From a virus, in the IMG/VR virus record IMGVR_UViG_3300025732_000024, positions 31,305 through 95,304 of that record: a stretch of DNA of 64,000 bases, one strand, 5' to 3'. A program made the position numbers and the translations under genes. Shown in pieces: positions 17,160 to 47,088 of this stretch; position 1 is the stretch's first letter, and each line of letters starts with the position of its first letter. Under the pieces are notes generated by a model. The model did no database searches. It had not been told where the DNA came from and saw nothing but the letters and a program-made list of their open reading frames with translations.

Positions 17160-17177
17160 CTAAGAAAGGAGATTCCA

Positions 17178-17432
17178 ATGTCAAACAAATCAAATGCGTG
17201 CAAAACAGACGGCACACTCAAAGGATGCTTTGTCATCCAAAACGAAAAAAAATGGGAATTCACAATCGTAGACCCCTGGAACAGAGGGTTTTACCGCACA
17301 CCAGACCCAAAAAGATTTGCTTCTCTTAAAGAGGCAGAAAAGTTTGTTAGAGAAAACAACATAAAAGGCACTATTGTGAAGGGTTGGTGCGACCCTTCCC
17401 AGGGATTTTTCCCAGGGGAGTTCCCTGGATAA
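17178..17432 (+). CDS. Hypothetical protein
   Basis: AAGGAG RBS. Confidence 0.55.
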   Translation: MSNKSNACKTDGTLKGCFVIQNEKKWEFTIVDPWNRGFYRTPDPKRFASLKEAEKFVRENNIKGTIVKGWCDPSQGFFPGEFPG

Positions 17433-17680
17433 TGACTAGAAAACAGGAGAGTATAACGCTCTCCCTTTCATTGGAACAGAAAGCCGAACTCGAAAACATA
17501 GCCTTAGAGTTCGGTTATTTATGGGGTGAAAACCCCAATATTTCAGCATTAATCAAAGCAATAGCAAAAGGCGAGCTATTGCTGATAAAACCCGAATCAT
17601 CTGGAAAGCAAAATCGGGTATTAGCCAAGGATGCGATCGCCAGCATCCAAGATGCAATTACATTGTTGGAGTTGATATAA
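17432..17680 (+). CDS. RHH-like protein resembling the N-terminus of cyanobacterial WYL regulators
   Basis: MTRKQESITLSLS..KAELENIALEFG..WGENPNISALIKAIA. Confidence 0.6.
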   Translation: MTRKQESITLSLSLEQKAELENIALEFGYLWGENPNISALIKAIAKGELLLIKPESSGKQNRVLAKDAIASIQDAITLLELI

Positions 17681-17868
17681 AAAGCCAATCAAAGGTTTCA
17701 GGTAATTTGATTGGCTTTTTCTTATTATATTAATTCGCATTTTCAACATCAATTTATCATTGCAAATACATCTGTAAAATGTTAAAATATACAAAAATAA
17801 AGTAGTGAATCTGCGTCAACAGATTCACTATTGCCACAACCTCTACACAGGCTGATGACACCAATATT

Positions 17869-19437
17869 ATGACACAATTAGAGCTAATCAAGAAAGAAAT
17901 TCAACAACCCAAACTCAGAGATTATCAGATTGATTTTATCAGAGATATTTACAATGAAATTCGCAAAGGTGAGAAGCGAATTTTAGGAGTATCCGGCACC
18001 GGATCAGGTAAAACAGTTATTGCATCCAGGATGGTAGCTGATGCTGTTAGTCGTGGGCGCAAAGTATTGTTTATTGTCCATTTAGATGTATTAGTGGGAC
18101 AAACTTATGAGAAGTTTTCCGCATTTGGACTAGAATGTGGATTCATTAAATCAGGATGGAGTGAAAATCAAAACGCTTTAGTACAAATTGCATCGGCTCA
18201 AACATTGCACCGCCGGAATTGGTGGCGAGATGGATTTGTACCAGATATAATTATCTGCGATGAAGCACACGAGACCGCATGGATATCCGTAGTATCCGAG
18301 TTGCTTGAAGAGAACGAAAACGCCATAAAAATCGGGCTGACCGCTACACCTTACCGATTATCAAAGAAGCAGGGCATGGCTGACAAGTTTGATGTGCTAG
18401 TAGCTGCACCCACGCCAGGAGAACTAATGAACAAGGGTTTTCTTGTTCCTGCCACTTACTACGGCATCAAGCAGCCTGATTTATCCAAAGTCAAAACCAT
18501 AGCTGGAGACTATTCCGAAAGCGGACTAAGCGAGGTTATGAACGATAGCGACGTTTTAGACTCAATGCTACGCAACTGGCAACGACTAGCTAGTAACAGA
18601 AAGACCATCGCTTTTGCGGTTGATGTCAAGCATTCAAAAGCGATCGCACAAAAATTCAATGACAACGGAATAGTCGCAGAACACCTGGACGGAGACACCC
18701 CAGGGCATATCAGAAAACAAATGTTTGAGCGGTTAGCAATAGGTAAGACTCAGGTATTGTCATCCTGCAAAGCACTCCAGATAGGGTTTGACTGCCCACC
18801 CGCCGACTGCGTGCTGATGTGTCGTCCTACTAAGTCCAAGTCAATTTACTTTCAACAATTGGGGCGTGGCTTGCGTCCATCCCCAGGTAAAAAAGATTGC
18901 ATGGTGCTAGACCAGGCTGGCAATGTCGCCAGATTTGGTTTTGTGGAAGATATCAAGAAATTTAGTCTAACCAAGGGCAAAGAATCACAAGGTGAAGCAC
19001 CAGTTAAATGTTGTCCCGATTGCCAAAAAATTCTCTATTGCTTTGTGATGAAATGCCCACAATGCAGCCATGTTTTCCCCAGGCAGGATGTAGAAAAACC
19101 AACTGGCGAGATGTTTGCATTAAAGTCAAAAGCCAAAAAATCAAAAGCTAAATCAAGCGATGACTCGCTACTTGAAGAGAGGATTAACTTTGTAAAAGAA
19201 TCGCTTCAAAAAGTCTGGAAATACAAAATAAAACCAGGCTGGGTGTATTTTCAATTTAAAGAAAAGTTTGGAACAACGCCCCATAGACAAATGTTCTTGC
19301 ATGGAATTTTTGGGGAAAATCCAACAGAAGAAGACAAGCAAAATTACTGGACTTTTCTGATGGCTAAATCTGAAAACGACATCACTTATTCCCAAAGGTA
19401 TTACTCATGGGAATTCGGGGAAAATAGAACAGCATGA
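17869..19437 (+). CDS. SF2 DEAH helicase (RadD/YejH-like) with Zn ribbon
   Basis: GTGSGKT, DEAH, TATP, QQLGRGLR, CPDC/CPQC. Confidence 0.92.
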   Translation: MTQLELIKKEIQQPKLRDYQIDFIRDIYNEIRKGEKRILGVSGTGSGKTVIASRMVADAVSRGRKVLFIVHLDVLVGQTYEKFSAFGLECGFIKSGWSENQNALVQIASAQTLHRRNWWRDGFVPDIIICDEAHETAWISVVSELLEENENAIKIGLTATPYRLSKKQGMADKFDVLVAAPTPGELMNKGFLVPATYYGIKQPDLSKVKTIAGDYSESGLSEVMNDSDVLDSMLRNWQRLASNRKTIAFAVDVKHSKAIAQKFNDNGIVAEHLDGDTPGHIRKQMFERLAIGKTQVLSSCKALQIGFDCPPADCVLMCRPTKSKSIYFQQLGRGLRPSPGKKDCMVLDQAGNVARFGFVEDIKKFSLTKGKESQGEAPVKCCPDCQKILYCFVMKCPQCSHVFPRQDVEKPTGEMFALKSKAKKSKAKSSDDSLLEERINFVKESLQKVWKYKIKPGWVYFQFKEKFGTTPHRQMFLHGIFGENPTEEDKQNYWTFLMAKSENDITYSQRYYSWEFGENRTA

Positions 19438-19491
19438 TTTCCCAGTAAATATTCACGACAAGCGCTCGCCATTGGCGGGCTTTTTTGTGCA

Positions 19492-20394
19492 TCAATACGG
19501 CACTTCCGCCATGTTCCCCAATGGGTCTACCTTGATATCAGTGACAATCTTCCTGGCCTGTGTAGCGACAAAACCAGCTTTCTTGACCATGCGCTCCCAC
19601 AGGGAACGGAACAGTCCTTTGCGTCTTTTCCATTGAAAAACAACCGCTTTGACGGCTGGTATGCAGGGGGCTTCAACCACAATATCCCCAATACCGTAGT
19701 ATGTACCCCGGAAATCATGCAGGGCAAAGAATAGCGCATTATACAACTCAACCATCAGCATACCACCGTGGTCGGGCATACAATTGAACGCCGTAATGTC
19801 TTCAGAGTGCTTCAAGCTTTCGTTGATTCTATCCCGACGCACCTGATCAAACACCTGATAGAAGATGAGCATCTTAGCAATATCAACTCGCTCTAGAACT
19901 GGTGGTGTGGCCACGCCGTGACCAGGTACACCAGCACGTTTTCCCCACGCCGCACCCTTGGGGCGATTCTCCAAATCATACCAAAATAGTCCCCAGGATA
20001 TCTGGAGTTTTCGGTATGTGAGCAGCGTCTTAGTGTTGTGATACGCTCCAGCCCAGCAATGCTGAAGATATCCTTCCGTAAAGTCTAGGGGTACTGTAAT
20101 CTGCACATTGCCCTGGGCAGAGCAGGCAAGCAGGTTGTTCCAATTCTCAGGGACTACCCTGTCCATGCCCTCTTCCCGTCTGATAGCCTGGTAATCCGTA
20201 GCTGCGCGCCACACCAGGGAATTAAGGATGCCCATGTGAGTAAATAGCTGGCGGTCGGTTAGGGTCTCTGATGCCGCAAAAGCCAACTCTTTAATTTCTA
20301 GGATTTGATTTTTTGAGAGAATTGTGTTATTATTCATATAGATGATGAATAAAGTTTGCATTGCAAGAATCTTGTAATGTGCGCGCACTGGCAT
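19492..20394 (-). CDS. Hypothetical protein, GC-rich relative to the window
   Basis: About 300-aa ORF; start uncertain. Confidence 0.6.
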   Translation of the reverse strand: MPVRAHYKILAMQTLFIIYMNNNTILSKNQILEIKELAFAASETLTDRQLFTHMGILNSLVWRAATDYQAIRREEGMDRVVPENWNNLLACSAQGNVQITVPLDFTEGYLQHCWAGAYHNTKTLLTYRKLQISWGLFWYDLENRPKGAAWGKRAGVPGHGVATPPVLERVDIAKMLIFYQVFDQVRRDRINESLKHSEDITAFNCMPDHGGMLMVELYNALFFALHDFRGTYYGIGDIVVEAPCIPAVKAVVFQWKRRKGLFRSLWERMVKKAGFVATQARKIVTDIKVDPLGNMAEVPY

Positions 20395-21162
20395 TAGTCA
20401 GTGCGTTTTGCTTTTTACCCGACCACCGCAACATCACGATTATAACACCATATCCAATATTATGCAAGCGGCTGAAACCCTTGCTGTATCTACATCTCTA
20501 CTTTTACTTACAGTATCCTCCTCATCCAGTGGAGACTGCTCATTTGGATTTTTTCTTTTGGAAAATTCTTTTCTTGGATTCCATTCCCATAAGCTCTGCA
20601 TCATGAGAAGGATACTGTAAGTAAAACGCCAAATCCTTGTAGGGTAGGCGGTTCACCGTCAAGCTAGTTAAAGCTGTTGCGATGATTGTACTGATACAGG
20701 CGTCAAGATTGTGACTTTTGTAAAATTCAGTATAAATCTAAGATAAAAGGTGTTGACAATTAATCTGAGATAAATTATATTGATTACATGAGAGGCAAAA
20801 CACTAATCCCAAAACAACCCGCAGGCCTCACGGGGTGCAGATGGTAGGGACTCTGCATTAAGGAAGATGTTTGAACAAATTGAGTCCATGAAATCCGATG
20901 CTGCCAAATGGCAGCCTGAGTTAACTGAAACGTCATTATCTGACTATATGCTTACCCTAGCATCTGCTGGGGATTTAGAAGCTATAGAATGGGTAATAGA
21001 ACACATTATGGAGTCTTCAGAAGAAGACTCTGAAGAGTTTTAGTTGTTACTAACTCCCAATTTGACGGCCATTTCAATCCCGAAATATTAAGTTATGGGG
21101 TAAGAATCAAATTCTTAATGGCCGCATTCCCCGAAACCGTTATTCAATAGGGGACTAATCAA

Positions 21163-21471
21163 ATGCAAATCAAAATCACAGAAAAAAGCAGCTTTGCGCT
21201 GCTAGAAATTCTTGCGGACAATGGCAACCCTGCCAGCCCCCAAAATCCAGTAGACGAACAATCAGAACTGGCGAAAGCCAACTTCCCTGAAGCCAACGGA
21301 CAGTTGGCTGTCATTAGCGGAATGCCAGTCAGTGCAATCGCCTTGGTGGCGTTGCACTACAAAAACCTGTTCGGCGCAACTGCTGTCGCCAATCCCCGTC
21401 TTGGGGTGGCACTGGTGGTTCACTCCACCAACCCAGCCTACCCACTGGGTGCGTCAATCCCTTTGGGATAA
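21163..21471 (+). CDS. csx3: Csx3/Crn3-like cA4 ring-nuclease homolog
   Basis: LAVISG-MP...AVANPRLGVALVVHST...LG aligns by eye with Csx3 VVISGRGP...AVYDPRLG-AVVV; 102 aa. Confidence 0.7.
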   Translation: MQIKITEKSSFALLEILADNGNPASPQNPVDEQSELAKANFPEANGQLAVISGMPVSAIALVALHYKNLFGATAVANPRLGVALVVHSTNPAYPLGASIPLG

Positions 21472-21713
21472 TCGAGTTGTGGCAGAATCGCACCGTTAAA
21501 AAGCGCGGTAGACCTGCCACAGGTCAAGGTGAATCAAGGTATATTCCTCTTGAATTGTTACCCGCCGTAGATAATCTCCTAGAGGAATACAGAAAGTAAA
21601 AGAAATCCCTAGTCAATGGCTGGGGATTTTTATTTTGAAAATATTTTATTTCGCTATTGACATTATAGAGAAATTATTCTATAGTGTAAGAAGTTGAAGA
21701 AACAAAGGCAATT

Positions 21714-22265
21714 ATGGAAGCTATCAAAATTTGGCACGCAGCCGAAGGGATGAGTCTTTCACCAACAGGTTTTAGGTTGGCTGACTCAGATGAGTTGGTG
21801 AAAGATGCTATTTATGGGGCCGTTTGCCCTGGCGATATTTTAGAGTTAGGCGATGGTAAGTTTGTTGTCGAAAAAGACAGGAGTTTATCCTGTCAGACAA
21901 AACGTTTTAACTTTGTCTTTAAGCATTGTTTCCTCGAAGATCCACTAAAATGGATGGATCATATACTGGAAGGAATAGGTTTAAAGAAAGAAAAGATTGT
22001 CAAAAGCTACGGAGCTATGGCAAATCTCCAAAGTCACGAATGGAACAATCGTGACGGCGAAAATTGCGATTTAATTGCAGTTAACAGCCGAAGATGGGAT
22101 AAAAACATTCCCGTTTATGGTTTCACCTACAAAGATGAGGACGGTGAAAGTATGGACGATTGGATTTTAAAAGAATTTATACCTGCTTGCAAAAAGCTGA
22201 TGTCGCAAGCAGGAGAAGTGAACATAACTTATTTTGAAAATGAAACTGGTTGGTGGATTGAATGA
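21714..22265 (+). CDS. Hypothetical protein
   Basis: Directly downstream of the repeated promoter. Confidence 0.65.
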   Translation: MEAIKIWHAAEGMSLSPTGFRLADSDELVKDAIYGAVCPGDILELGDGKFVVEKDRSLSCQTKRFNFVFKHCFLEDPLKWMDHILEGIGLKKEKIVKSYGAMANLQSHEWNNRDGENCDLIAVNSRRWDKNIPVYGFTYKDEDGESMDDWILKEFIPACKKLMSQAGEVNITYFENETGWWIE

Positions 22266-22711
22266 ATCTTTCTCAAATCCTCCACAAAATCTTGAGCAAC
22301 TACAAAAGCATCTATGATGCTGCTCAGGAAATCTCGCTGCAAACAGGCGAGAAGCTTGACACAGTACACCACCGATTGTCCAAGTGGTGTAAAAAAGACC
22401 CTGAAACATGGGTCAAAATCAACCAAGCTTTAAACCTGCTTGGCTATGAAATTCAAATCAAAAAGCAAGGCAACATGAAAGCAAAAGCAATGTTAACTTC
22501 CAAGACACTGGCAGGGTCTGGTGGACTTGTCTCTGTAATCTATGAGGTCGTAGATTACGACGAAAGAGAGAATGCTATTTACGGCATCATTGATACCAAT
22601 TTCAGGGGCATTGCCCTTGTAATTGAAGAAACTCCAGCCTCAAGAAAGGTTGAGGTTTACGCGACAGAATTACCTGTGCTTTCTCTTTTGAGAGAGTACG
22701 TGGACTTTTAA
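22262..22711 (+). CDS. HTH-containing hypothetical protein
   Basis: SIYDAAQEIS...LSKW; ATGA overlap with upstream gene. Confidence 0.55.
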   Translation: MNLSQILHKILSNYKSIYDAAQEISLQTGEKLDTVHHRLSKWCKKDPETWVKINQALNLLGYEIQIKKQGNMKAKAMLTSKTLAGSGGLVSVIYEVVDYDERENAIYGIIDTNFRGIALVIEETPASRKVEVYATELPVLSLLREYVDF

Positions 22712-22771
22712 GTATTTGCGGAACTCCTTAGTTCCGCGAATACCCTGTCCAATAACTGGAGATTTTTAAAC

Positions 22772-23179
22772 ATGATTATTGACTTTGGTAAATACAAAGG
22801 AAAAAATATTGGGGAAGTCCCCACTCAATATCTCGCATGGGGCGCAGTTTACCTCTCCAATCGATGGAGAGATGTTTTTGAACAGGAATACGACTCTCGG
22901 TTACATTCGAGATTGTATAGGTTTCAGGTGTTTTTAAACACCACAGAACCTGAAGAATGCCTGTCCCTTCCACAGGACTTACTGCGCTCTCTACGCCTCT
23001 ACAAGAGGTTCTGGGGAAACAAGAAGATAGCTTACATAGAGAATGATGGTGATTTCATCATTCTTCCACAAGAACTGGATGAGCGGCAAAAAGATACACT
23101 TGACTTTTACTTAAAAAGTACAAGTACCATGATGGAATATTGTTGTGAACTTAATCACAACAATTACCGACAGTTCTAA
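22772..23179 (+). CDS. Protein with FGKYKG (DUF3820/ExoX C-terminal-like) domain
   Basis: IDFGKYKGKNIGEVPTQYLAW. Confidence 0.65.
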   Translation: MIIDFGKYKGKNIGEVPTQYLAWGAVYLSNRWRDVFEQEYDSRLHSRLYRFQVFLNTTEPEECLSLPQDLLRSLRLYKRFWGNKKIAYIENDGDFIILPQELDERQKDTLDFYLKSTSTMMEYCCELNHNNYRQF

Positions 23180-23303
23180 AAAAAAAGAAACCCCTGGTCA
23201 ACGACTGGGGATTTTTTATTTTAAAAATATTTTATTTTACTAGTTGACATTGTAGAGAAATTATTCTATAGTGTTAAACATGAGACAAAAGGAGATAAAG
23301 AGT

Positions 23304-23720
23304 ATGACTTTTGTAAAACCAGTAATTGCAAATAAAACAGTTAAAAAATACGATAAGGTTCTCTTTGGAAGCGGTTCAAGCCGCCCCTACAGTCCATATA
23401 CCCTACTTAGTGACGTAACTGTCACTACAAAAGATACAAGGTCTACAGGAAGTGTGAGCTTCCATATTTCTGGCACGTTGCCAGATGGTAGAACAATACA
23501 AACAGAAGGATTTTTGTACAAGAAAGGGCGCAGTCCTTGGAAGTTCAGCGGTGCTGGTCTAGCACCATTGGAATATTCCGGTGGTATGTTAAGTCACTGC
23601 CAGGATGCAGTGCATTTTATGTTTGACCCTGGAGAATGGGATAGGTCTTATCGCTACAAATTCCCTGAAACGCTTGTAACGGATACATGGTCTGCCAAGC
23701 AGACGTGGCAAGAATGGTAA
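23304..23720 (+). CDS. Hypothetical protein
   Basis: AAGGAG RBS; promoter upstream. Confidence 0.65.
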   Translation: MTFVKPVIANKTVKKYDKVLFGSGSSRPYSPYTLLSDVTVTTKDTRSTGSVSFHISGTLPDGRTIQTEGFLYKKGRSPWKFSGAGLAPLEYSGGMLSHCQDAVHFMFDPGEWDRSYRYKFPETLVTDTWSAKQTWQEW

Positions 23721-23776
23721 GCCGAAACGGGAGCAATCCCGTCCGCACAGGATGACAACCTGCGCGCTGATGAGGC
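23721..23776 (+). ncRNA. Type II hammerhead ribozyme
   Basis: GCC-GAAA-CGGGA(GCAA)UCCCG-UC^-CGCACAGG(AUGACAA)CCUGCGCG-CUGAUGA-GGC; complete core; cleavage predicted after C23743. Confidence 0.9.
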
Positions 23777-23796
23777 AAGTTAACAAAGGAGCAGGT

Positions 23797-24372
23797 ATGC
23801 GTACAATAGAATTAGCTAAAAAATTGAATTTAAAAGAAAACCAAGCAATCACTTGGTTGTCATTACCGGAATGGAAGCCTTATTTCAGGGTTAGCTTTGA
23901 GGAGAAATTAACTTCTTCATTGAGAAAGGAGATTAGCAAAAGGCTGTGGAAATATCATAGAGTTAGAAATCCCGTTAAGTTCAAGAAAATCCAAGGGGGG
24001 TTCCTTGGGACGGTAAACAATTTAATAGTTGAGGTGAATTTCTATGCTTATTACAAACCAAGCATAGAAGTCACGACAAAATACCCTTATTCAAAGGAAA
24101 CAGAAACTGTTCCTGATGTCTGGATGCCTCAAGAATATTATCTACCAACCATTGACATTAGGGAATTTAATCCGACGGATTACTCTGATGTGGCGCACCC
24201 GCTACACGAGTGGTTTGAACTAGGGGCATCGTTGGGGTATGGGGACGGGTTTTGGAATAGAGACCCTGATGAACCCCTTAATGATACTCCTGAATTCCCT
24301 ACTAGGGAAGCTGAAACAGCTTACCGTGGAGGATATGAAAGAGGATTCACCAACGGGGTAATGGATGAATAA
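23797..24372 (+). CDS. Hypothetical protein (start MRTIEL)
   Basis: AAGGAG RBS between ribozyme and ATG. Confidence 0.65.
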   Translation: MRTIELAKKLNLKENQAITWLSLPEWKPYFRVSFEEKLTSSLRKEISKRLWKYHRVRNPVKFKKIQGGFLGTVNNLIVEVNFYAYYKPSIEVTTKYPYSKETETVPDVWMPQEYYLPTIDIREFNPTDYSDVAHPLHEWFELGASLGYGDGFWNRDPDEPLNDTPEFPTREAETAYRGGYERGFTNGVMDE

Positions 24373-24428
24373 CCCACCTGATGAGTCCGGCTGGCGACCG
24401 GACGAAACACTCCGATGAGTGTCGTGGG
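24373..24428 (+). ncRNA. Type I hammerhead ribozyme, copy A
   Basis: CCCAC-CUGAUGA-GUCCGG(CUGGCGA)CCGGAC-GAAA-CACUC(CGAU)GAGUG-UC^-GUGGG; cleavage predicted after C24423. Confidence 0.93.
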
Positions 24429-24455
24429 CAGCCGTATAATTACACTGGAGAATTT

Positions 24456-24755
24456 ATGATTTATTCTGTTGGTTTTGATGAACAGGAATTGAGCAAGGTC
24501 AGCCTAGAAGCTAACAAACTCTTGTCCGGACAAGAACTTGTTTATGACAAAAAATTAATAACGTTCACCTCTTTTTCATCCTATGAAGGGGAGGAAGAGT
24601 GTGACAGAGAAGAGACCGACATCCTCTCTGGAGATACGGTGATTGTGTCCTGGTGGACTCCCTTTGCCTACATCGAAAGGATGAGGCAGGACAAAATAAA
24701 AGTCATTGTTCTGGAAACAGAACACGGAGGTATTATCAGGGTAATTTCATCTTAG
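24456..24755 (+). CDS. Acidic hypothetical protein flanked by two hammerheads (start MIYSVG)
   Basis: GGAG RBS; upstream ORF-track extension is ribozyme sequence. Confidence 0.6.
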   Translation: MIYSVGFDEQELSKVSLEANKLLSGQELVYDKKLITFTSFSSYEGEEECDREETDILSGDTVIVSWWTPFAYIERMRQDKIKVIVLETEHGGIIRVISS

Positions 24756-24756
24756 T

Positions 24757-24812
24757 CCCACCTGATGAGTCCGGCTGGCAACCGGACGAAACACTCCGAT
24801 GAGTGTCGTGGG
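24757..24812 (+). ncRNA. Type I hammerhead ribozyme, copy B
   Basis: Near-identical to 24373-24428 (one loop-II change); direct repeat extends to about 24833; cleavage predicted after C24807. Confidence 0.93.
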
Positions 24813-24839
24813 CAGCCGTATAATTACACTGGATAAACT

Positions 24840-24871
24840 GAAAAAACCCGTCAGAAATGACGGGTTTTTTA
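24840..24871. terminator. Intrinsic terminator
   Basis: AAAAAACCCGTCA-GAAA-TGACGGGTTTTTT. Confidence 0.85.
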
Positions 24872-25185
24872 TTGCCCATTCTCCAATAGTTCCGCTAAAG
24901 TCTCCAGAAGCCACACCAAATCCTCTCTAGGCATCCATCCCAGCTTGTTAAATCTGTCCAGAATTTGCCGGAATCGCTCCTGTTTGTCGTCCATGATTGA
25001 ATTGTACCGTTCGTGTGTCCCTACCTCAAACAATTATATATAAATAATTGTAGAGATAAATTTAATCCAATTAGCAAACCAATCGGCATAGTCCATTAAT
25101 TGTGCAATCAATTTTAGGCATAAATAAACCCGCTAAAACTGTATTAATTTTAGCGGGTTTTAGTTATTGGTGCAATTCAAAAAGG

Positions 25186-25701
25186 TCACGCTATTCTCAA
25201 AAAAGTATCTAGCGTTTTTGGCGGCACGGGTAAGTGGGATGAGAACTCCAGATTGTATTTTTTTGCCCATCGCCTCAAGGTTTTAATAGTGGGAGATTTG
25301 CCAATTTGACGACACAACCACGCAGGAACTTCCGAACCTTTGATGCCCTCAATGGCAATTCCGTCGCCCAATGCTTTATCAAGTTCCGTCTTCAATACCG
25401 GACTTGAATTTAACCGCTTAACAATTTGAGGTAAAGTCACCCCTGTGTTGCACCCTACTGGTCTTTTAGTTCCGTTTTCTCTCTTCTGCTCAAAGCGGAT
25501 ATATGCCAGCATCATCAGCCATTGACAATGAGTTTTGCTGATAATCGGCTCTTCTCCTTTCTTTAATTTACGAAAGTCGGGAACTTGACAAATCTGCTTG
25601 TATTTCCGCCAAGTGCGATCGCTTATCGGGTCATTGTAAATATGAGCGCAAGCAGCCCACACCCAGCGTTCCGGATATCCTTGGGGTTCATTATTTTTCA
25701 T
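25186..25701 (-). CDS. Hypothetical DNA-binding protein
   Basis: SDRTWRKY and TIKTLRRW HTH-like motifs. Confidence 0.5.
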   Translation of the reverse strand: MKNNEPQGYPERWVWAACAHIYNDPISDRTWRKYKQICQVPDFRKLKKGEEPIISKTHCQWLMMLAYIRFEQKRENGTKRPVGCNTGVTLPQIVKRLNSSPVLKTELDKALGDGIAIEGIKGSEVPAWLCRQIGKSPTIKTLRRWAKKYNLEFSSHLPVPPKTLDTFLRIA

Positions 25702-26203
25702 TTCTCCACTCCTTCGCATTAATAAAATTAATATTGGCCGCTACTGCCGCTTGTCTGTCCTCTTCCCTATCTCCCACCATCAAATACTCGTGTCCAGGAT
25801 ACAAACTAATCCCAAAATTCAACATTCCTGGATTAGGTTTTCTAAAGTTGCCAAAATCTTCCCAGCGATTTGATAGTAGTGGACTCTGTCCGACTTCCCT
25901 GGCAAATTTAGATAGTCGGTAAAAAGTTTCACCTCCATCGGTGCAGAAGAAAATCATTAACATCTTAGGGATTAAATCAAGGGTGATTTTCTGTTCTGTA
26001 AAACAATCTTCAAGGGACTTAAACCCTGCTTTCACGCCACCTTGATTGGTGACACCAATGATTTTGTAATCGTGATAGCGAGCGATCGCATCTTCAACTC
26101 CAGGAATCATCTCCTGGTCATAGGGGTCATTGATGAACGTCGCCCCTGACTTACTGCGGCGCACCGTTCCGTCCAAATCCAAAAACAATACTTTACTGCT
26201 CAT
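25691..26203 (-). CDS. HAD phosphatase (GmhB/PNK 3'-phosphatase-like)
   Basis: FLDLDGT, TNQGG, RKPNPGM, VGDREED. Confidence 0.9.
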   Translation of the reverse strand: MSSKVLFLDLDGTVRRSKSGATFINDPYDQEMIPGVEDAIARYHDYKIIGVTNQGGVKAGFKSLEDCFTEQKITLDLIPKMLMIFFCTDGGETFYRLSKFAREVGQSPLLSNRWEDFGNFRKPNPGMLNFGISLYPGHEYLMVGDREEDRQAAVAANINFINAKEWRNEK

Positions 26204-26579
26204 TTTGCTTTTCTAGGTTTAGCCGTTTTTTCCTACCGCGATTCTTGTAATGTCCAAATTCCTTTATCTGAATTCGCTCTTCCGTTACTCCAAACTCTAA
26301 CGCTTTCTCCCGCTCATGCGTCCTAACGCTATCCTGTTCTTGTCGCCACAAAGCCGCTACAGCCATTTGCAGTCCGGTTGTGACATCTACTCCGTAGCAG
26401 GCAATGACTCTTAAAAATTTACGCTTAGATTCCGCCGGAACTTTACCCCGGATTTCTCGCATAGCATCGCCTACTACGGGCTTGCCGTCAATCATCCCTC
26501 GGTCAGGATGATTGCTGATATCTTCTTCTAGTTCTTGTTTAGTCTGTGGTTTCCGTCGTTCGGTCATGATATTCATCAA
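26193..26579 (-). CDS. Hypothetical protein (possible RHH)
   Basis: ORF in operon. Confidence 0.5.
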   Translation of the reverse strand: MMNIMTERRKPQTKQELEEDISNHPDRGMIDGKPVVGDAMREIRGKVPAESKRKFLRVIACYGVDVTTGLQMAVAALWRQEQDSVRTHEREKALEFGVTEERIQIKEFGHYKNRGRKKRLNLEKQNEQ

Positions 26580-26705
26580 AGTTATTTTCTACTATTAGCA
26601 CACTATTAGCGGAAAATGATATGCTATAAAAAAATAGTCCCTATTTTGCTGAAACCAAAATAGGGACACACCCCACTAGCCGTTACCTAATGGAGTACCC
26701 CAATC

Positions 26706-26939
26706 ATGGCACAAACCACAACAAGAATCCAAGAAATTGCAGACAAATTAATGAAAGATGGGCGCATATACCCTGGAGAATACGGGTATATATCAAGATG
26801 TATTCAGGCGATTTATTACCAGCTAGAGAAATTTTATAATGGCACTGGTGTTGAACCACCTAGTAGAAAAACTATAGAAAAATGGTTTGAAAGAGATTGT
26901 CCTGATTGGGCGATCGCTATTTTAAATAAAGCAATTTAA
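26706..26939 (+). CDS. Small hypothetical protein
   Basis: GGAG RBS. Confidence 0.55.
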   Translation: MAQTTTRIQEIADKLMKDGRIYPGEYGYISRCIQAIYYQLEKFYNGTGVEPPSRKTIEKWFERDCPDWAIAILNKAI

Positions 26940-27213
26940 AACAGATAACCTACATTTGTCGGTAAACCTATAGCCACCCCACAAGGGTGGTTTTATATTG
27001 GTGACATAACCCAGACATGACCCAGACATCACAAATTTACCACCATGGAAAAAACCAAAACTCGCGCATATTTTGAAGCACTGGTAAAGGACGGCGTTTC
27101 GTCTCAAACAGCAAGACAAGCAGCATCAACCATGAGATGCGATGACTACTTTGAAAAACGGACAGAGCGAGGCTCTAACAAAGTATTAGACGCGTGGGAA
27201 GAAAGTATGTTAA

Positions 27214-27489
27214 ATGCCAAATAGAAAGCAGATTGCCCAAGAAGTCGGTGTAGGAGAAAGACAACTGCAAAGATACATAAAACTAGCATCCCAATATTTA
27301 GATATGTTTGCATCTTTTAGGGATAAAACCACCAATAATCTGATTGGGATGCCAGTTGAAAATGATGAGCAGATTCAAATATTAAAAGCAATAAGGACGC
27401 TAATTTTAAAATACAAAAACACCAAAAACGGAGCGGAAATTATTGCAACAGAGCTACAGAAAATCAACAAAGGAGACAGCAATGTTTAA
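27214..27489 (+). CDS. HTH protein
   Basis: RKQIAQEVGVGERQLQRY. Confidence 0.65.
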   Translation: MPNRKQIAQEVGVGERQLQRYIKLASQYLDMFASFRDKTTNNLIGMPVENDEQIQILKAIRTLILKYKNTKNGAEIIATELQKINKGDSNV

Positions 27490-27733
27490 ATCTAAAATCA
27501 CAGCATCAATCATCATTATCCTTGCCTTAGCAATGCCAGCCATATCCTACGCAGCAGCCAAATACATACCATCAGCACAGGTTCAAGCCAATGGAAAACA
27601 CTGAAATTTTAATTGTAATCAGGCAACATGAACCAGACGGAAGTTACAAAGAATGGACGGCACAACCAGGGTTATCAGCCTTTAGTGCAGCCGCCAAAAA
27701 ACAAATCAAGAAACTATTGGGAGTAGGCAAATT

Positions 27734-29975
27734 ATGACAGTGGCAGATTTAGTTAAAAGCTTCATGAACTCGGAAATGTCAGTAGACAACGTTTGGGAAA
27801 AAACCCAAGCAATATGCGCTATCTATGGCATTGATCCAAACACATTAGATGAAGCAAACGCCCAATTTATAGCAGGTGAAATTGATAAAGAAAATGCCAG
27901 TTTAGCCGTTAGTGGTAATGGCGGCGGACTGACTGTAACTGAAGACAACGGAAAGAAAAAGAAGAAAAATACACCAGTAGCTACCAATAATTCACAGCAA
28001 GCGCAAACCCTAAAACCTGCGGTAATTGGACTAAGAAATGCTATTGAATCCGAAGTAGCGGGCTTGTCTAATGCCTTCGATTCAGAGTTTACCAAGCACG
28101 AGAAAAACGCAGCCCAAAAAATCACACAGAGAGCCAAACAATTTGCTCCCAATGTAGTCAATTACGTAGCCGAAGAACTGGAGGGCTACAAAGCAGATTC
28201 AGAAATCTTTCACGGACAAATTACAGGAATCATCGAAGAGGCTTTTAGCGGTTTCCTCGACGATTAGACCATCTAATTGGATGATTGCAGCCGCAATTAT
28301 TCAGTCAATCGCACTAATAGGAGTTCTCGTTTATGCAGCATCGCAACCTCCCCGACCCGTGGGAGGAGACAACCACCCAAACACCCAAGAACCCCATAGA
28401 ATTTACCGTGAAACCGACTGGTGAATTTACATTTAAAGGGTCACCTAATCCCGATTTAGTCAGGCAATTAATAGTCTCTAGCGACTATCATCAAGACCAA
28501 TACCGTCGCCACAAATCTGAAACAGAGCAACGCATTGATAGTCAAGCACAGATGACTAATTATTTAACAATCGGATTCTTGGGGACATCTATTTTAGTAT
28601 TAGCAGCGTGTCTAATACTGTCAGCAAACAAAGGTCAAAATCAACAAAATCAAGGAAATATTAATTATGATGGACAATTTATTCGGGGGACTAGTTGCAG
28701 GTAAATCCAGTAAATTAACTGGCAGTGGGCAAAATCCAACCGCTATCGGCAACTTAGGAAACTCAATGGCACGGGTAAAAGACAAGATGCAGCTACCCGT
28801 CGAAATATCAGCAGCAAAAGTTATTCAATTAGAACAAGAAATGGGACAAACAGCAGGCGAAATGGAATTAGCAAGTCAGATTTTTTCTGCACAAGAAAAA
28901 CTCCTAAACGATGCAATCACCTTACACGGTAAAAACACTGACTGGGCAGCTATCACCATGAGAGCGGATCAGAAATTGCGAGAAATCGAATCAAAACATC
29001 ATCAGCAAATTGCCACCTATAGCCTAGGCGCAGCCAAAACCCAGGCTTACGTTGACGGATACACGGGAGCATATCAAATGAGTGCGGAGATTTTCCAATG
29101 ATATTCAAACGAAATTCAGAAGCAGACAACGCATTGTTTCTATTCTTTAATAAGGTCGGTTGGGTGGTGCTATTTTATAATGCGTACACCCTATATCCAT
29201 ACTTTTACGACCTTTTAAAAGCAGCAGATTATTGGCAAAGAATCTTTGCTAGTGCTGTATCTGTGGCATTAATTCTAGGGATTGAATCATCTACCATGAC
29301 CGTATTGTCCGACCCTAGAGTTTTAGTGAAAGTCCTAGAAAAACCTAGAGTTGACAAAGAAATTAAACAGATTTTTGATGTCGTCAGCTTCATGGGAATT
29401 GCTAGTTTTTTATTAGTCGCATCCTATACTTTTTGGACTGATTATCAAATCAATTTAAAACAATTAGGCAACCCTAGCATGATGTTTTTAAAAATATTAT
29501 GCGGCGTGTTTGTGATTGGTGCTGAGTTAGCTTTTGGTTGTGCAAACATATTTTTAATAGCCAGCAAGGAGGCTGAATTAAATGATTCCAGACGCTAAAG
29601 GTATTATTACCATCCTATTGATAGCTTTGTTTTTGGGGATGATTTTATATTTGCAATATGACATGAGGAGATGACATGAAAATCAAAATGGAGGACTTAT
29701 TTACCGTCGGTTGCCTATTTTCTGGATATGCCTTTTTCCAGTTAATGGGAATCATCATCAGAGGGTTTCCCGGTAGTCGTACTGGCGCGATCGCTCTTTC
29801 TGTACTAGGAATCCTTCTTATATTCGGTATGGGATTCAGTAACTGGTGTGGGTTGTGGTACAAGCGCGGCGGTGTCCTGAGCAAAAATCAATCCGTTGTT
29901 GGCTTTGCTCCATTTTATGTACTTGGTACATTTGCACTGGTGGCGTTAATTATTGGATTCAATGCGGGAGGCTGA
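27734..29975 (+). CDS. Cluster of coiled-coil and membrane proteins (27734-28267, 28333-28704, 28667-29101, 29098-29598, 29676-29975)
   Basis: Closely spaced co-directional ORFs, several with hydrophobic segments, upstream of the ATPase. Confidence 0.6.
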
Positions 29976-40155: not shown

Positions 40156-40624
40156 GTTTCGCTCCACCCCAACTCTTTCGCCCCTTAGCAAGAAAATCGC
40201 TACTATGTGCGACTTCCATTGATTAGTTTCCTCCCACCCCAATCCTTTCGCCCCTTAGCAAGCTAAATAAGCCTTTGCTAATTTAGGAGCTAGTTCCTGT
40301 TTCCTCCCACCCCAATCCTTTCGCCCCTTAGCAAGCGTTAATCAGGTCGGTTTTGGGGTTATTTTCTGTGGAGTTTCCTCCCACCCCAACTCTTTCGCCC
40401 CTTAGCAAGAATAGAATGTTATTATCTACATAGCTTATGTCTGAGTTTCCTCCCACCCCAACTCTTTCGCCCCTTAGCAAGTTTTGAGGTTATCTGTGTC
40501 GTATCAGAGTCAGATGTTTCCTCCCACCCCAACTCTTTCGCCCCTTAGCAAGCTATCAGCATCCAGGTTAATTCTTCTATCCGTTGCGTTTCCTCCCACC
40601 CCAACTCTTTCGCCCCTTAGCAAG
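40156..40624 (-). CRISPR. CRISPR array 1: 7 repeats of 37 bp, 6 spacers of 33-37 nt
   Basis: Repeat CTTGCTAAGGGGCGAAAGAGTTGGGGTGGGAGGAAAC at 40156, 40226, 40299, 40373, 40445, 40516, 40588; most divergent 3' end at the trailer repeat 40156. Confidence 0.98.
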
Positions 40625-40771
40625 TCCGTCTTTTCAAAGCCTTATGCAGCAAGGGTTCTGTGAGCGGTTTTGGCGAACCTCTTAAAAAATCTCATTTCAG
40701 CCGCTTCAATTTCTTGCGATGTGTAGCGAAGGAAGCCTGAAAATATTACAATGCCTTGGTTCTGAGGATTT

Positions 40772-40908
40772 GGCGAAAGCCTTGGGATAGAAAGCCAGCC
40801 ATAGCTCCGGCTGGTCTGTGAGGGTCATCACTTCTCCTCTTACTTTTCAGGACGAATCCCTAGAAGTCATAGGCTAACCAAAGTCAGCCACCCGCCCAAA
40901 CTGCGGTG
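40772..40908 (-). ncRNA. Putative tracrRNA 1; leader at 40625-40771
   Basis: Promoter TTGACA(40942-40937)-N17-TAACAT; anti-repeat CUUUCUAUCCCAAGGCUUUCGCC (40794-40772) pairs with repeat 1; homologous to 46278-46414. Confidence 0.8.
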
Positions 40909-41305
40909 ATTTGATGTTAGCCTACATCCTATTAATTGTCAATCAATATATCTATAGTCTTGTTGATGTTTCCGATAATTGATACAATATTCAAACCAGC
41001 ACCGCAAAGGTGGCACACGCACCACCTAAGAGGTTTTACCACTGGCAATATTTCACCCGTGAGGGCGGGCTACTTTATATGTCTAATGATACCTCAAAAC
41101 TGTTGTTGCAACAATTGATTCAGGATTTACCAGGGGTGAAGGACTTGCTGTTTCACGGTTGGTAGAGGTTTTTGTTAATTATCGAAAAGTCAATAAGACT
41201 ATTGAAGAAATGATATGATTACTGAAACCATCCCACTCAGGAATATTTGCGGTATTCCGGTGGTTTCAATGGTTAGTCCACTCTACTTAATTCCCTTAGT
41301 GAACT

Positions 41306-42067: not shown

Positions 42068-42526
42068 TTAATTTAGTCGGTCGCATCTTTGGGGCGATCG
42101 CAGCTTCGTAATTCAGTAAGAAACACAAGGAGTGATGAAAAATACATGATTTATGACTACGCTGACCTTTATGATTATTCTATGATAAACGTAGGTAGTC
42201 GGGTTAGATCAACGATTCATAAAAACATGGCTGGGATAGTTGCAAAGAAAGAAGTAATAGAAGTATCCGGCATTCCTTCTGCTACCTTTATCACGGTTCA
42301 ATGGGATAACGGTGAAATATCACATCCGTATCCGCACCAGATAGCTATTGAGCTAGTTCTAAATAAATAAACTTGTCAAATTATTATTGTTACAACTTAT
42401 CGAAAAGTCAATGAGACTATTGAAAACATGATATGATTACTGAAACCATCCCACTCAGGAATATTTACGGTATTCCGGTGGTTTCGATGGTTAGCTTTTC
42501 ACCCGGAAAGGACGGGTTACTTTGCT

Positions 42527-44378: not shown

Positions 44379-46247
44379 ATGAAAACAATCAAAATCAAGG
44401 TAAAGCTAACACCTAGTCAAATAGAATCCTGCGATAAATATTTAGAAGAATTATCCTGGTTGTGGAACTTGGTCCTAGCCAATCAACTGCACAATCACTG
44501 TATTCGCTGGTATGAATGGGCTGCTAAACTTAGTGCCGAATTAGCAAAAACCAACGAGAAGTTAGAGAAATTAAAACCAGAACAACAGCAATTAATTAAA
44601 GATTATTACAACTCCACAACCAAGCCTAAGCTAAGTAAAAAAGACCAAGAATTAGTCAACAAATTCAACATACTCTCTAGATGGAGTCCCTTCGATTTAG
44701 AAGGGATTATTCCCGTCCCTTTGCGTATTGGTAACAGTGCTTATGAAGGACTATCTTGCCAAATTGCCACAGGTGGGAGCTACTGGAAACGAGATGACAA
44801 CACCGTCATTCCCGTTAACACCAAGAAAGGCATAGCATTCATCAAAGGGTCGAAGTTAGTCAAGGGTGACAGACCCTGGCAGCGAATAGAAATAAAGTCC
44901 CATGAGTACAGGAAATTCCCCGGCGGTAAATACGAAGGACGGGAATTAATCACCTTAGAAAAATTCGATAATCTCAACGGATTAAACACACTAAGAGCAT
45001 CTCAAAACCTACCAGATTTAACCGTTTCTTCTCACTACATAGGTGGTCTATTGGGATTCTTCAAAGAATCTTGGAAAGCATTTTTGGATTCAAAAAGGAC
45101 AATCAGCAGGAAGCCTAAATTCAAAAAAGATAACGATAAAATTGCAACCTTGTCTAACAGTCAATGCCCACCAAACCGCATAGATGTTGACAAAAACATC
45201 ATAGCCATAACCGGATTCAGTGCAGTGAAAGTTGATGATAAATCCTGGGTAAAACGACTGAATTTATCCCAGTCCTTACCCCGCACCTATATGTTGACAA
45301 AGCAACAATCAGGCTACTACATAAACATTATAGTTGCTCATCCACTGCAAGAAGAGAAGTCAATATTAGCCAACAAACTACCCAAAGTCAAAAAACAATT
45401 TGGAGAAGACAGTCAAGAGTATGCAGATATTAAGTCAAAACTAAAATTCATTGAACAACAAATCAAGGAATCATCAGTCATTGAAGGCAAGGGATTAAGT
45501 GTAGGCATAGACCCAGGCGTTCAGTCAGTTGTGTCCACAGACCACGGTGCTTTATTTTTGCCAAATTTATCTAGGGAGCGTGTTTCTATCCACATAGAAG
45601 AACTCCAATCAAAACTAGATAATGCTGAATCAATCAATGATAAAAAGTGGAAAGAAGCAGGGAACAAAACACCTAGACCTAGAACCAATACCGAGATTAA
45701 ACTACAAGATAAAATCAGAAGATTGCATGAACGCGGCAGCAATTCATCCAATGCCTTTAATCACAAATTATCCACAAGATTATCGCGCACCTATGAACAT
45801 ATTGCCTGGGAAAACACCCAAATCAAAAACCTACTCAAGCAAGTAGAACCCAAATCACTACCAGAAGGTACCGGCTACGCTCACAATGGTGCATCTGCTA
45901 AACGCGGATTAAATTGGATTATGAGACAAAGATGTTTAGGTGATTTAGAAAAAAAGACAAAGCTAAAAGTTGAAAATCGCGGTGGCAGTTTTCAGCAGCC
46001 ACCAGCTAACTACACATCCCAAACTTGCCACCAATGCGGACAAAAGGGAGAACGATTATCACAGCATGAATTTATCTGTAAAAACTCCGAATGTAGACTG
46101 TTTAACGTCCCACAACAAGCAGATACCAACGCAGCCAGGAATCACAAACAGAACGCCGGATTTGAATTAGGAGAAGTCAAGTACAACGGCGTAAGATTGA
46201 CATACGAAAAACCCCAAAGATTCAAGAAAAAACGCGCTGACAGTTGA
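44379..46247 (+). CDS. TnpB-derived type V (Cas12-like) effector, 622 aa, RuvC triad intact
   Basis: MKTIKIKVKLT start; RKPKFKK; GIDPG (D378); AWEN (E478); YTSQTCHQCG...CKNSEC; ADTNAARN (D582); tracr/leader/array directly downstream. Confidence 0.88.
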   Translation: MKTIKIKVKLTPSQIESCDKYLEELSWLWNLVLANQLHNHCIRWYEWAAKLSAELAKTNEKLEKLKPEQQQLIKDYYNSTTKPKLSKKDQELVNKFNILSRWSPFDLEGIIPVPLRIGNSAYEGLSCQIATGGSYWKRDDNTVIPVNTKKGIAFIKGSKLVKGDRPWQRIEIKSHEYRKFPGGKYEGRELITLEKFDNLNGLNTLRASQNLPDLTVSSHYIGGLLGFFKESWKAFLDSKRTISRKPKFKKDNDKIATLSNSQCPPNRIDVDKNIIAITGFSAVKVDDKSWVKRLNLSQSLPRTYMLTKQQSGYYINIIVAHPLQEEKSILANKLPKVKKQFGEDSQEYADIKSKLKFIEQQIKESSVIEGKGLSVGIDPGVQSVVSTDHGALFLPNLSRERVSIHIEELQSKLDNAESINDKKWKEAGNKTPRPRTNTEIKLQDKIRRLHERGSNSSNAFNHKLSTRLSRTYEHIAWENTQIKNLLKQVEPKSLPEGTGYAHNGASAKRGLNWIMRQRCLGDLEKKTKLKVENRGGSFQQPPANYTSQTCHQCGQKGERLSQHEFICKNSECRLFNVPQQADTNAARNHKQNAGFELGEVKYNGVRLTYEKPQRFKKKRADS

Positions 46248-46277
46248 CAATTAAAACTGCTCATGCTAATATCAAAT

Positions 46278-46414
46278 CACCGCAGTTTGGGCGGGCGGCT
46301 AGTTTAATATTAGCCTATGACTTCTAGGGATTTATCCTGAAAAGTAAGGGGGAAGGTGACAACCCCCATAGACCAGCCGGAACTATGGCTGGCAGCCTTC
46401 AAAATCACTCGCGC
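46278..46414 (+). ncRNA. Putative tracrRNA 2; leader at 46415-46561
   Basis: TTGACA(46244-46249, overlapping the cas stop)-N17-TAATAT; hairpins co-vary with tracrRNA 1; anti-repeat-like CAGCCUUCAAAAUCACUCGC at 46393-46412. Confidence 0.78.
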
Positions 46415-46561
46415 AATGCCCAGAACCAAGAAAATGCAAGGGATTCAGGCAATCCTTTCGATACATAGCAAGTTGCTAAAGCGGCTGAAATGAGATTTTT
46501 CAGAAGACCCGCGCAAATGGCACTCAGAACCCTTGCTAGACAAGACTTTGAAGATGCGGCA

Positions 46562-47088
46562 CTTGCAAGAAGGGCGGAGGGATGAGAGGTGCTGAAACTA
46601 TTCTGATGGGATGAACGAGCTTATAGCCTGCGACTTGCAAGAAGGGCGGAGGGATGAGAGGTGCTGAAACTATTCTGATGGGATGAACGAGCTTATAGCC
46701 TGCGACTTGCAAGAAGGGCGGAGGGATGAGAGGTGCTGAAACAACGTTAGCGGATACATTACCCTCTAAAGGCATACAACCTTGCAAGAAGGGCGGAGGG
46801 ATGAGAGGGGTTGAAACGCGTGTGGCTGACTTTGGTTAGCCTATGACTTCTAGGGACTTGCAAGAAGGGCGGAGGATAGAAAGGACTGAAACCTCCAGAA
46901 ATTTAATAGCATTATCATTGCGGACAGCAGCTTGCAATAGGCAGAGGAAAAAGAAGGACTGAAACTAGCTTAAAGCAGCAATCAATCAACTTTACCAACC
47001 CTTGCAGCAACGCCAGACCAGGAAGGACTGAAACGCGAAACAGCAGCTTAATGATTGCCGCAATAACAAGCACAAAGAAGGCCGAAAC
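46562..47088 (+). CRISPR. CRISPR array 2: 4 near-consensus 37-bp repeats plus 4 progressively degenerate ones
   Basis: CTTGCAAGAAGGGCGGAGGGATGAGAGGTGCTGAAAC at 46562, 46634, 46706, 46781; variants at 46857, 46931, 47001, about 47054; spacers 1 and 2 identical. Confidence 0.96.

What the first reader, a model, noticed from the sequence alone, without database searches (positions are those of the whole stretch)
46818..46856. CRISPR spacer against the paralogous tracrRNA gene that spares its own
Spacer GCGTGTGGCTGACTTTGGTTAGCCTATGACTTCTAGGGA equals the reverse complement of 40857-40895 at 38/39, with one mismatch at position 4. The site is about 13 nt downstream of the predicted tracr1 start. 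The equivalent part of tracr2 (46291-46330) differs across the PAM-proximal half, so the guide discriminates between the paralogs. The crRNA has the same sense as tracr1, so it would act on DNA (template strand), not by RNA-RNA pairing. The seed mismatch could be an escape mutation or could tune binding without cleavage.
Basis: seen in the sequence. Interest (0 to 1): 0.88.

Follow-up and report, generated by a model that had tools for sequence, protein, structure and literature searches.

The report
Phage CRISPR spacer matching its own tracrRNA gene
A freshwater phage with its own Cas12p CRISPR system carries a spacer copied from the helper-RNA (tracrRNA) gene of its second CRISPR module, but this looks like one of several spacers taken from its own lineage and blunted by one mismatch, not a built-in regulator.

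Summary
Spacer 4 of array 2 (46818-46856) matches the minus strand of 40857-40895 at 38/39, with the mismatch at spacer position 4. The target is nt +13 to +51 of a second, promoter-bearing tracrRNA gene.

The nuclease is Cas12p ("Cas12 hacker", PDB 9JFS), a family this scan has already met on other DNA. The regulatory reading is not supported:
- The spacer is missing from the closest relative (Cas12p 98% identical), which has the same tracr1.
- The site is flanked by TGG, not the published GTN PAM.
- The design, full-length pairing with a broken seed, is the reverse of known regulatory guides.
- Two more spacers of this lineage show the same signature. The neighbouring spacer hits the phage's own tape-measure gene 37/38 (mismatch at position 1). 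A relative's spacer hits the cas12p gene 36/36 in this phage and 35/36 in its own genome (position 6).

Best reading (about 0.6): the spacer was captured from a lineage tracr1 gene, and the resident copy escapes through the seed mismatch. This is the pattern known from virus-borne arrays in interviral conflict.

The T in the spacer faces a G that is invariant in all 11 tracr copies examined, and no perfect target was found. The spacer may therefore now be inert.

The parts
46818..46856 (+). Spacer S4 of array 2, the finding. It is 39 nt long and has the same sense as the tracr1 RNA.
   Evidence: On its own it folds at -13 kcal/mol, against -3.1 and -2.3 for S3 and S1.
40857..40895 (-). Protospacer inside the tracr1 gene (tracr1 nt +13 to +51). 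It covers the 3' strand of stem 1, all of stem-loop 2 and the 5' half of stem 3. Its 5' flank is ...GTTTGG, so positions -3 to -1 read TGG.
40625..40907 (-). The tracr1 gene. It is about 85% identical to tracr2 over the first 130 nt and has its own anti-repeat matched to the array-1 repeat.
   Evidence: blastn. (alignment; duplex tracr1 x repeat 1 at -38.6 kcal/mol).
40914..40942 (-). Promoter-like site of tracr1 (TTGACA, 17 nt, TAACAT).
   Evidence: This is a consensus match only.
40156..40624 (-). Array 1: seven 37-nt repeats and six spacers, with degenerate units further on. There is no cas gene next to it.
   Evidence: The genome has only one cas12p.
44379..46247 (+). The cas12p gene (622 aa), with RuvC residues D378/E478/D582 intact.
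   Evidence: PDB 9jfs_A, E = 0, aligned over residues 1-613 without a gap..
46244..46272 (+). Promoter-like site of tracr2 (TTGACA, 17 nt, TAATAT).
46279..46561 (+). The tracr2 gene and leader. It carries the conserved 5' motif with GUUU for the pseudoknot and an anti-repeat for the array-2 repeat.
   Evidence: Preprint section 9.
46562..47088 (+). Array 2: R1-R4 are regular and R5-R8 are progressively degenerate. S1 and S2 are identical. S5-S7 are shared with relatives.
46743..46780 (+). Spacer S3, next to S4. It matches the phage's own tape-measure gene (G000 20702-20739, minus strand, outside the window) at 37/38. The mismatch is at position 1 and the flank is TGG.
45403..45438 (+). Site in cas12p that a relative's array-2 spacer (G001/L002 spacer 2) matches 36/36. 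The relative's own gene has 35/36 (seed position 6, D344N). The flank is TTG.
   Evidence: Contigs joining a repeat to this spacer occur in runs X6, X8 and X17 (tables 5 and 5c).

Best explanation
S4 is a genuine CRISPR spacer captured from a tracr1-type gene of this phage's own lineage, either the resident copy or that of a co-infecting sibling. The phage encodes no Cas1, so host adaptation machinery must have done the capture.

It belongs to a spacer repertoire largely aimed at the phage's own kind: the tape-measure gene, the cas12p gene, tracr1 and a head-operon intergenic region. This is what virus-borne arrays in interviral conflict look like. A perfect copy would have directed the active Cas12p nuclease against the carrier's own genome. 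What survives is a version with one mismatch in the PAM-proximal seed, so the resident tracr1 is spared.

The mismatched base in the spacer (T) faces a G that is invariant in every tracr examined. The change therefore most likely arose in the spacer, and S4 may now be inert against known relatives as well.

Shown: the match, its position in tracr1, its absence from relatives, and the parallel cases. Inferred: the source of the spacer, selection for the mismatch, and loss of activity.
For: 1. Sequence facts. The match is 38/39, with 0 expected by chance. S4 sits in a regular array whose leader-proximal spacers differ between strains while the trailer spacers are shared. That is ordinary acquisition.

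2. S4 is not conserved. G001/L002 (Cas12p 98% identical, 40 nt differences in 1869) has the identical protospacer in its tracr1 but no S4. The L032 array also lacks it. Both G000 and G001 carry both tracr-array modules, so tracr1 was most likely already resident when S4 was acquired.

3. Parallel near-self spacers:
- S3 against the phage's own 4,699-aa tape-measure gene: 37/38, mismatch at position 1.
- G001 spacer 2 against cas12p: 36/36 to G000 and 35/36 to its own gene. Position 6 of its own gene carries a derived G>A change (D344N), while all other relatives keep G.
- G001 spacer 3 (also L032 spacer 7) hits the same tape-measure gene 400 bp away.
- The last spacer of array 1 matches the window at 5134-5166, 33/33.

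4. The three single mismatches fall at positions 1, 4 and 6. If they were placed at random, the chance of this is (6/37)^3 = 0.004.

5. Spacer position 4 corresponds to tracr nt 16. It closes stem 1 and is G in all 11 tracr copies from three subclades.

6. The nuclease is competent. The RuvC triad is intact and the protein is about 80% identical to the solved, DNA-cutting Cas12p (preprint).

7. There is no Cas1 in the complete 95-kb genome.

8. Precedent. Virus-borne arrays target closely related viruses, often at sites near the array. The carrier's own locus bears point mutations that prevent self-targeting (PMC6858448).
Against: - The PAM is unresolved. None of the six protospacer flanks recovered for this clade reads GTN. 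They read TGG, TGG, TTG, AGA, CGC and ATA. If GTN is strictly required, these sites were never cut, and the seed mismatches would need another cause.
- Two of the four published PAM-contacting residues differ here (N261S, K332N). The PAM may therefore differ, but this is untested.
- The sample is small, with three single-mismatch cases. One SNP in a 36-nt site is expected anyway at 2.1% divergence.
- The S3 mismatch is a synonymous third-codon position (GGT/GGA). It could reflect an unsampled relative rather than a spacer mutation.
- No source phage with a perfect S4 target was found, and no experiment shows that S4 is inactive.
Confidence: 0.6

Rival explanations
1. Live inter-phage weapon. 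S4 was taken from, and still perfectly matches, the tracr1 gene of an unsampled competitor that has T at tracr nt 16. Cas12p would cut that competitor's genome at its CRISPR helper-RNA gene. The resident tracr1 is spared by the single seed difference.
For: G001 spacer 2 behaves in just this way. It matches G000's cas12p perfectly and has one seed mismatch to its own gene. Precedent exists in PMC6858448. Many lake and freshwater runs hold variants of this phage, so co-circulating relatives exist.
Against: All 11 tracr copies examined have G at that position, which pairs in stem 1. Exact-pattern scans of IMG/VR and of JGI metagenome contigs with the spacer core returned only G001, which also has G. 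No C>A variant at 40892 appears among the variants listed for four runs, but 106 rows were not shown. The flank in every tracr is the constrained GUUU-GG motif, never GTN.
Confidence: 0.2
2. Regulatory guide. The S4 crRNA with Cas12p binds the template strand at +13 to +51 of tracr1 without cutting. This blocks transcription, so module 2 damps module 1 in the competition for the single effector.
For: The site lies immediately downstream of the tracr1 promoter on the template strand. Each tracr is matched to its own repeat, so silencing tracr1 would specifically disable array 1. Regulatory cr-like guides do exist in other CRISPR types (PMC10120712).
Against: - It is not conserved in the nearest relatives, which have the same two modules.
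- Known regulatory guides keep seed pairing and lack distal pairing. S4 is the reverse.
- There is no GTN PAM.
- S4 folds on itself at -13 kcal/mol.
- The same signature occurs on a spacer against the tape-measure coding region.
Confidence: 0.12
3. Not an acquired spacer. A fragment of a tracr gene was placed between two repeats by illegitimate recombination between tracr/leader sequences and the array.
For: Tracr-array modules are clearly shuffled in this family. There are two modules in G000 and G001, an extra repeat inside the tracr1 3' region of G001, and a partial tracr plus a second array in G003. At 39 nt, S4 is the longest spacer.
Against: The fragment is bounded exactly by complete repeats. 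Its length lies within the 33-39 nt spacer range of the arrays. The flanking tracr sequence is absent on both sides.
Confidence: 0.05

Closest known systems
Virus-borne CRISPR arrays used in interviral conflict (Sulfolobus portogloboviruses SPV1/SPV2; Medvedeva et al. 2019, PMC6858448)
   Same: A virus carries the array. Its spacers match closely related viruses, often at sites close to the array. The carrier's own orthologous site differs by a point mutation that prevents self-targeting. Adaptation genes are supplied by the host.
   Different: Here the phage also brings its own effector (Cas12p) and two tracr-array modules. The target is a tracrRNA gene. For S4 itself no relative with a perfect target is known, and the odd base is in the spacer, not in the carrier's target.
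Self-targeting spacers as CRISPR autoimmunity relics (Stern et al. 2010, from my own knowledge; Nobrega et al. 2020, PMC7708048, seen only as a search hit)
   Same: The spacer matches the carrier's own genome. It is tolerated through a mutation in the spacer, target or PAM. It is not conserved between close relatives.
   Different: The carrier is a lytic-type phage genome, not a bacterial chromosome with prophages. Several such spacers occur in one small array set.
Regulatory cr-like RNAs, tracr-L and scaRNA (Shmakov et al. 2023, PMC10120712; Workman et al. 2021, as cited there)
   Same: A guide directed at a component of its own CRISPR locus, near a promoter.
   Different: Those guides are conserved among related loci and pair only partially, about 10-15 bp including the seed. 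They sit in stand-alone or mini-arrays. S4 pairs over 38 of 39 nt with a broken seed, is strain-specific and sits in the normal array.
Cas12p / 'Cas12 hacker' type V system (Wang et al., bioRxiv 10.1101/2025.01.20.633832; PDB 9JFS, 9JG3)
   Same: The effector is about 80% identical and the RuvC triad is intact. The tracrRNA has the GUUU pseudoknot motif, the repeats end in AAAC, and the system is phage-borne without cas1/cas2.
   Different: The preprint does not analyse native spacers or targets. This phage has two tracr-array modules for one effector. Two PAM-contact residues differ. The near-self protospacers lack GTN.

Membership tests
Cas12p (type V) CRISPR system | The effector is homologous to solved Cas12p and has the RuvC D-E-D triad. 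| tested here: met
   9jfs_A, E = 0, gap-free over 613 residues. D378, E478 and D582 are present.
Cas12p (type V) CRISPR system | The tracrRNA has a 5' GUUU that pairs with the AAAC end of the repeat (pseudoknot), plus an anti-repeat. | tested here: met
   Both tracr1 and tracr2 carry the motif, and each has an anti-repeat matched to its own repeat.
Cas12p (type V) CRISPR system | A GTN PAM lies 5' of the protospacer on the non-target strand. | tested here: not met
   The flank of the tracr1 site is TGG. The published PAM is from an orthologue. The PAM of this orthologue is unknown, and N261S and K332N differ.
Regulatory cr-like guide (tracr-L, CreA, mini-array type) | Conserved among closely related loci. 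| tested here: not met
   It is absent from G001/L002 and from L032, which share the older spacers.
Regulatory cr-like guide (tracr-L, CreA, mini-array type) | Partial complementarity that keeps the seed and lacks distal pairing. | tested here: not met
   Pairing is 38/39, and the only mismatch is in the seed at position 4. Criterion taken from PMC10120712.
Regulatory cr-like guide (tracr-L, CreA, mini-array type) | The target lies at the promoter of a CRISPR-Cas component, and repression occurs without cleavage. | tested here: inconclusive
   The target is at +13 to +51, just downstream of a promoter-like site. Repression cannot be tested with these tools.
Virus-borne array in interviral conflict | Spacers of the viral array match genomes of closely related viruses. 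| tested here: met
   S3, S4 and the last array-1 spacer match G000. G001 spacers 2 and 3 and L032 spacer 7 also match G000. A G004 spacer matches G005.
Virus-borne array in interviral conflict | The carrier's own site differs by a point mutation while a relative's site matches perfectly. | tested here: inconclusive
   This is met for G001 spacer 2 (36/36 to G000, 35/36 to its own gene). For S4 the own site is mismatched, but no perfectly matching relative was found.

The most novel reading that the evidence does not exclude
Two tracrRNA-array modules share one Cas12p, and module 2 carries a guide that binds the start of the tracr1 gene without cutting it. It would throttle the rival module. 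This would be CRISPR-on-CRISPR regulation inside a phage genome, working through a seed-mismatched guide and a non-GTN flank.
Probability: 0.1. Interest if true: 0.8.

Novelty: new member of a known kind. Interest (0 to 1): 0.42.

Why it matters
The Cas12p preprint characterised the enzyme but not what its native arrays aim at.

This locus and its relatives give a first view. A sizeable share of the spacers in this clade match the phages' own lineage, including the cas12p gene and a tracrRNA gene. The carrier's copy is spared by single seed mismatches. That points to kin-directed superinfection exclusion, or to frequent self-capture that is then neutralised. It does not point to a dedicated regulator.

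It also raises a concrete, testable question. The three seed-mismatched self-matches share TGG or TTG flanks, so this Cas12p clade may recognise a PAM other than GTN.

For the scan, it is a caution. A striking self-match to a CRISPR component need not be regulatory.

Tried and rejected
1. Search for a perfect S4 target. The 33-nt spacer core in IMG/VR returned only G001, which has G at position 4. A 24-nt core in JGI metagenome contigs returned nothing. A conserved tracr core in GTDB genome contigs returned nothing, so no prophage or host lead came from it.

2. More arrays of this clade. The two repeat patterns in IMG/VR returned only G001. A repeat pattern in metagenome contigs returned one 1.8-kb array, L032.

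3. Targets of other spacers, to infer the PAM.
- Both arrays of G000 against the phage collection and the plasmid collection gave no match.
- G001 array 1 and L032 against plasmids gave only weak or low-complexity hits. The L032 hits were to cyanobacterial heptamer repeats.
- Two more IMG/VR scans with spacer cores gave nothing new.
- No consistent PAM emerged. A 3'-flank NAC motif (GTN on the other strand) fits 3 of 6 sites, and a 5' T-K-G motif fits 3 of 6. Both were chosen after seeing the data, so I rely on neither.

4. Reads laid on the window. All four runs are contigs, so depth cannot rank expression.
- RNA-run contigs lie on both tracr/array modules, which does not prove transcription.
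- No variant at 40892 is among the listed rows, but 106 rows were not shown.
- Whether S4 is present in X5, X6, X8 or X17 could not be settled.

I left the step out.

6. The Rfam gathering search of the window gave no hit, and no tRNA was found.

7. The Nature Microbiology version of the Cas12p paper is not held. The preprint has no seed or mismatch-tolerance data.

Full report
**Setting.** The window is bases 31305-95304 of a complete 95,304-bp IMG/VR virus record with direct terminal repeats. Around the finding lie phage genes: a Mu-type portal, tail protein J, Rha, KilA-N and a GIY-YIG nuclease.

The 622-aa gene at 44379-46247 aligns without a gap to PDB 9jfs_A, "Cas12p", at E = 0. Cas12p ("Cas12 hacker") is a phage-borne type V nuclease. 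It needs a tracrRNA, prefers a GTN PAM, cuts DNA and is activated by host thioredoxin (bioRxiv 10.1101/2025.01.20.633832). Here the RuvC triad D378/E478/D582 is intact. The genome has one cas12p and no Cas1. Earlier follow-ups of this scan had already met Cas12p loci in other cyanophage windows.

**Anatomy.** Two tracr-array modules flank the region.
- Module 2 (plus strand) has a promoter-like site at 46244-46272, tracr2 from 46279, and array 2 at 46562-47088.
- Module 1 (minus strand) has a promoter-like site at 40942->40914, tracr1 from 40907 down to about 40625, and array 1 at 40624->40156. It has no effector gene of its own.

The two tracrs are about 85% identical over the first 130 nt. 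Each has an anti-repeat that co-varies with its own, different 37-nt repeat. The duplex of tracr1 with repeat 1 is -38.6 kcal/mol. Both arrays differ in their spacers between this phage and its closest relative. Both modules therefore look to be in use.

**The observation.** S4 (46818-46856) matches the minus strand of 40857-40895 at 38/39, with none expected by chance. The mismatch is at spacer position 4.

The published numbering places the pseudoknot GUUU at tracr nt 7-10. With that, the protospacer is tracr1 nt +13 to +51. It covers the 3' strand of stem 1, stem-loop 2 (which shows compensatory changes across the family) and half of stem 3. S4 has the sense of the tracr1 RNA, so only DNA pairing is possible. 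Tracr2 differs at many of the first 17-19 positions.

**Is it a conserved device?** No. G001 (locus L002) has a Cas12p 98% identical (40 of 1869 nt differ). It carries both modules and an identical protospacer in its tracr1, but its array 2 has three other leader-side spacers and no S4. It shares the degenerate trailer repeats and the old spacers S5-S7. A third array of this type (L032) also lacks S4. Both G000 and G001 have both modules. The simplest history is therefore that tracr1 was already resident when S4 was acquired.

**S4 is not alone.**
- The neighbouring spacer S3 matches the phage's own 4,699-aa tape-measure gene (G000 14589-28685, minus strand) at 37/38. The mismatch is at position 1, a synonymous third-codon position.
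- Spacer 2 of G001 matches the cas12p gene. It is 36/36 to this phage (window 45403-45438) but 35/36 to G001's own gene. G001's own gene has a derived G>A change at seed position 6 (D344N), while all other relatives keep G.
- Contigs that join an array-2 repeat to that spacer occur in two lake DNA runs and one RNA run (tables 5 and 5c).
- G001 spacer 3 (also L032 spacer 7) hits the tape-measure gene 400 bp from the S3 site.
- The last spacer of array 1 matches window 5134-5166 perfectly.

A large part of this clade's repertoire is thus aimed at its own lineage. The three single-mismatch cases have their mismatch at positions 1, 4 and 6, which has probability 0.004 if placed at random.

This is the pattern described for virus-borne arrays in interviral conflict. 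There, spacers target close relatives, often near the array. The carrier's own locus is protected by point mutations (PMC6858448).

**Which side changed?** Spacer position 4 faces tracr nt 16. This G pairs with C2 in stem 1 and is invariant in all 11 tracr copies from three subclades. No perfect target was found in IMG/VR or JGI metagenome contigs. The T is therefore more likely a change in the spacer than a record of a foreign allele. If so, S4 is mismatched to every known relative as well.

**Can it act at tracr1?** The site is flanked by TGG. This flank is part of the constrained GUUU-GG motif of every tracr in the family and is not the published GTN. Two of the four PAM-contact residues differ in this clade (N261S, K332N), so the PAM may have shifted.

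The three seed-mismatched self-matches share TGG, TGG and TTG flanks. This hints that such flanks are recognised, but six flanks in all give no consistent motif. S4 also folds on itself at -13 kcal/mol.

Known regulatory guides keep seed pairing and lack distal pairing. They are also conserved between related loci (PMC10120712). S4 is the opposite on both counts.

**Verdict.** The regulatory interpretation is unlikely (about 0.12).

The best reading (about 0.6) is a lineage-derived spacer, from the phage itself or a sibling, whose resident target is spared by a seed mismatch. A still-active weapon against an unsampled allele has about 0.2. A recombination artefact has about 0.05.

The kind is known. 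The particular target, the tracr gene of a second module, and the Cas12p setting are new details.

Noticed in passing
window 46743-46780; target at G000 20702-20739 (outside the window): Spacer S3 of array 2 matches the phage's own tape-measure gene at 37/38. The only mismatch is at position 1, and the flank is TGG.
   Followed up: yes
L002 5398-5433 (G001 array 2, spacer 2); window 45403-45438: A relative's spacer targets the cas12p gene. It matches this phage perfectly and has one seed mismatch to the relative's own gene, caused by a nonsynonymous change (D344N). Contigs with this spacer occur in several lake runs.
   Followed up: yes
window 40193-40225 and 5134-5166: The last spacer of array 1 matches the phage's own intergenic region 33/33. 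Its 5' flank is AGA (no GTN), and its 3' flank is CAC, which reads GTG on the other strand. How this perfect self-match is tolerated is not settled.
   Followed up: partly
window 46599-46633 and 46671-46705: The two leader-proximal spacers of array 2 are identical, a duplicated repeat-spacer unit. A contig in run X8 carries this sequence with non-repeat flanks, so it is probably the real target in another genome. Its 5' flank ends in ATA.
   Followed up: partly
G000 14589-28685 (minus strand; upstream of the window): There is a single open frame of 4,699 aa with a tape-measure domain and a weak, below-threshold M23 peptidase match. That is unusually long for a tape-measure protein.
   Followed up: partly
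window 41179-41276 and 42397-42494: Two 98-nt direct repeats, 95% identical, each end about 30 nt before a regulator gene (Rha-like at 41306, KilA-N-like at 42527). Each contains a long imperfect hairpin. Their function is unknown.
   Followed up: no
L006 10934-11133 (G003): In a more distant Cas12p phage, a first array is followed by about 200 nt resembling the 3' half and leader of a tracr. A second array with a different repeat then follows. Multi-module layouts recur in the family.
   Followed up: no
L002 about 700-800 (G001 tracr1 3' region, minus strand): G001 has an extra repeat-like unit inserted inside the 3' part of tracr1, ahead of array 1. This unit is absent in this window.
   Followed up: no
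whole window: The Rfam gathering-threshold search found no family at all, including no hammerhead. Earlier first-reader notes on this genome describe several hammerhead ribozymes at 23721-24833.
   Followed up: no
L032 and L002 (array 1 of G001): A spacer in array 1 of G001 and a spacer in an array-2-type array (L032) overlap by 20 nt. Two different repeat types therefore sampled the same unknown target region.
   Followed up: partly
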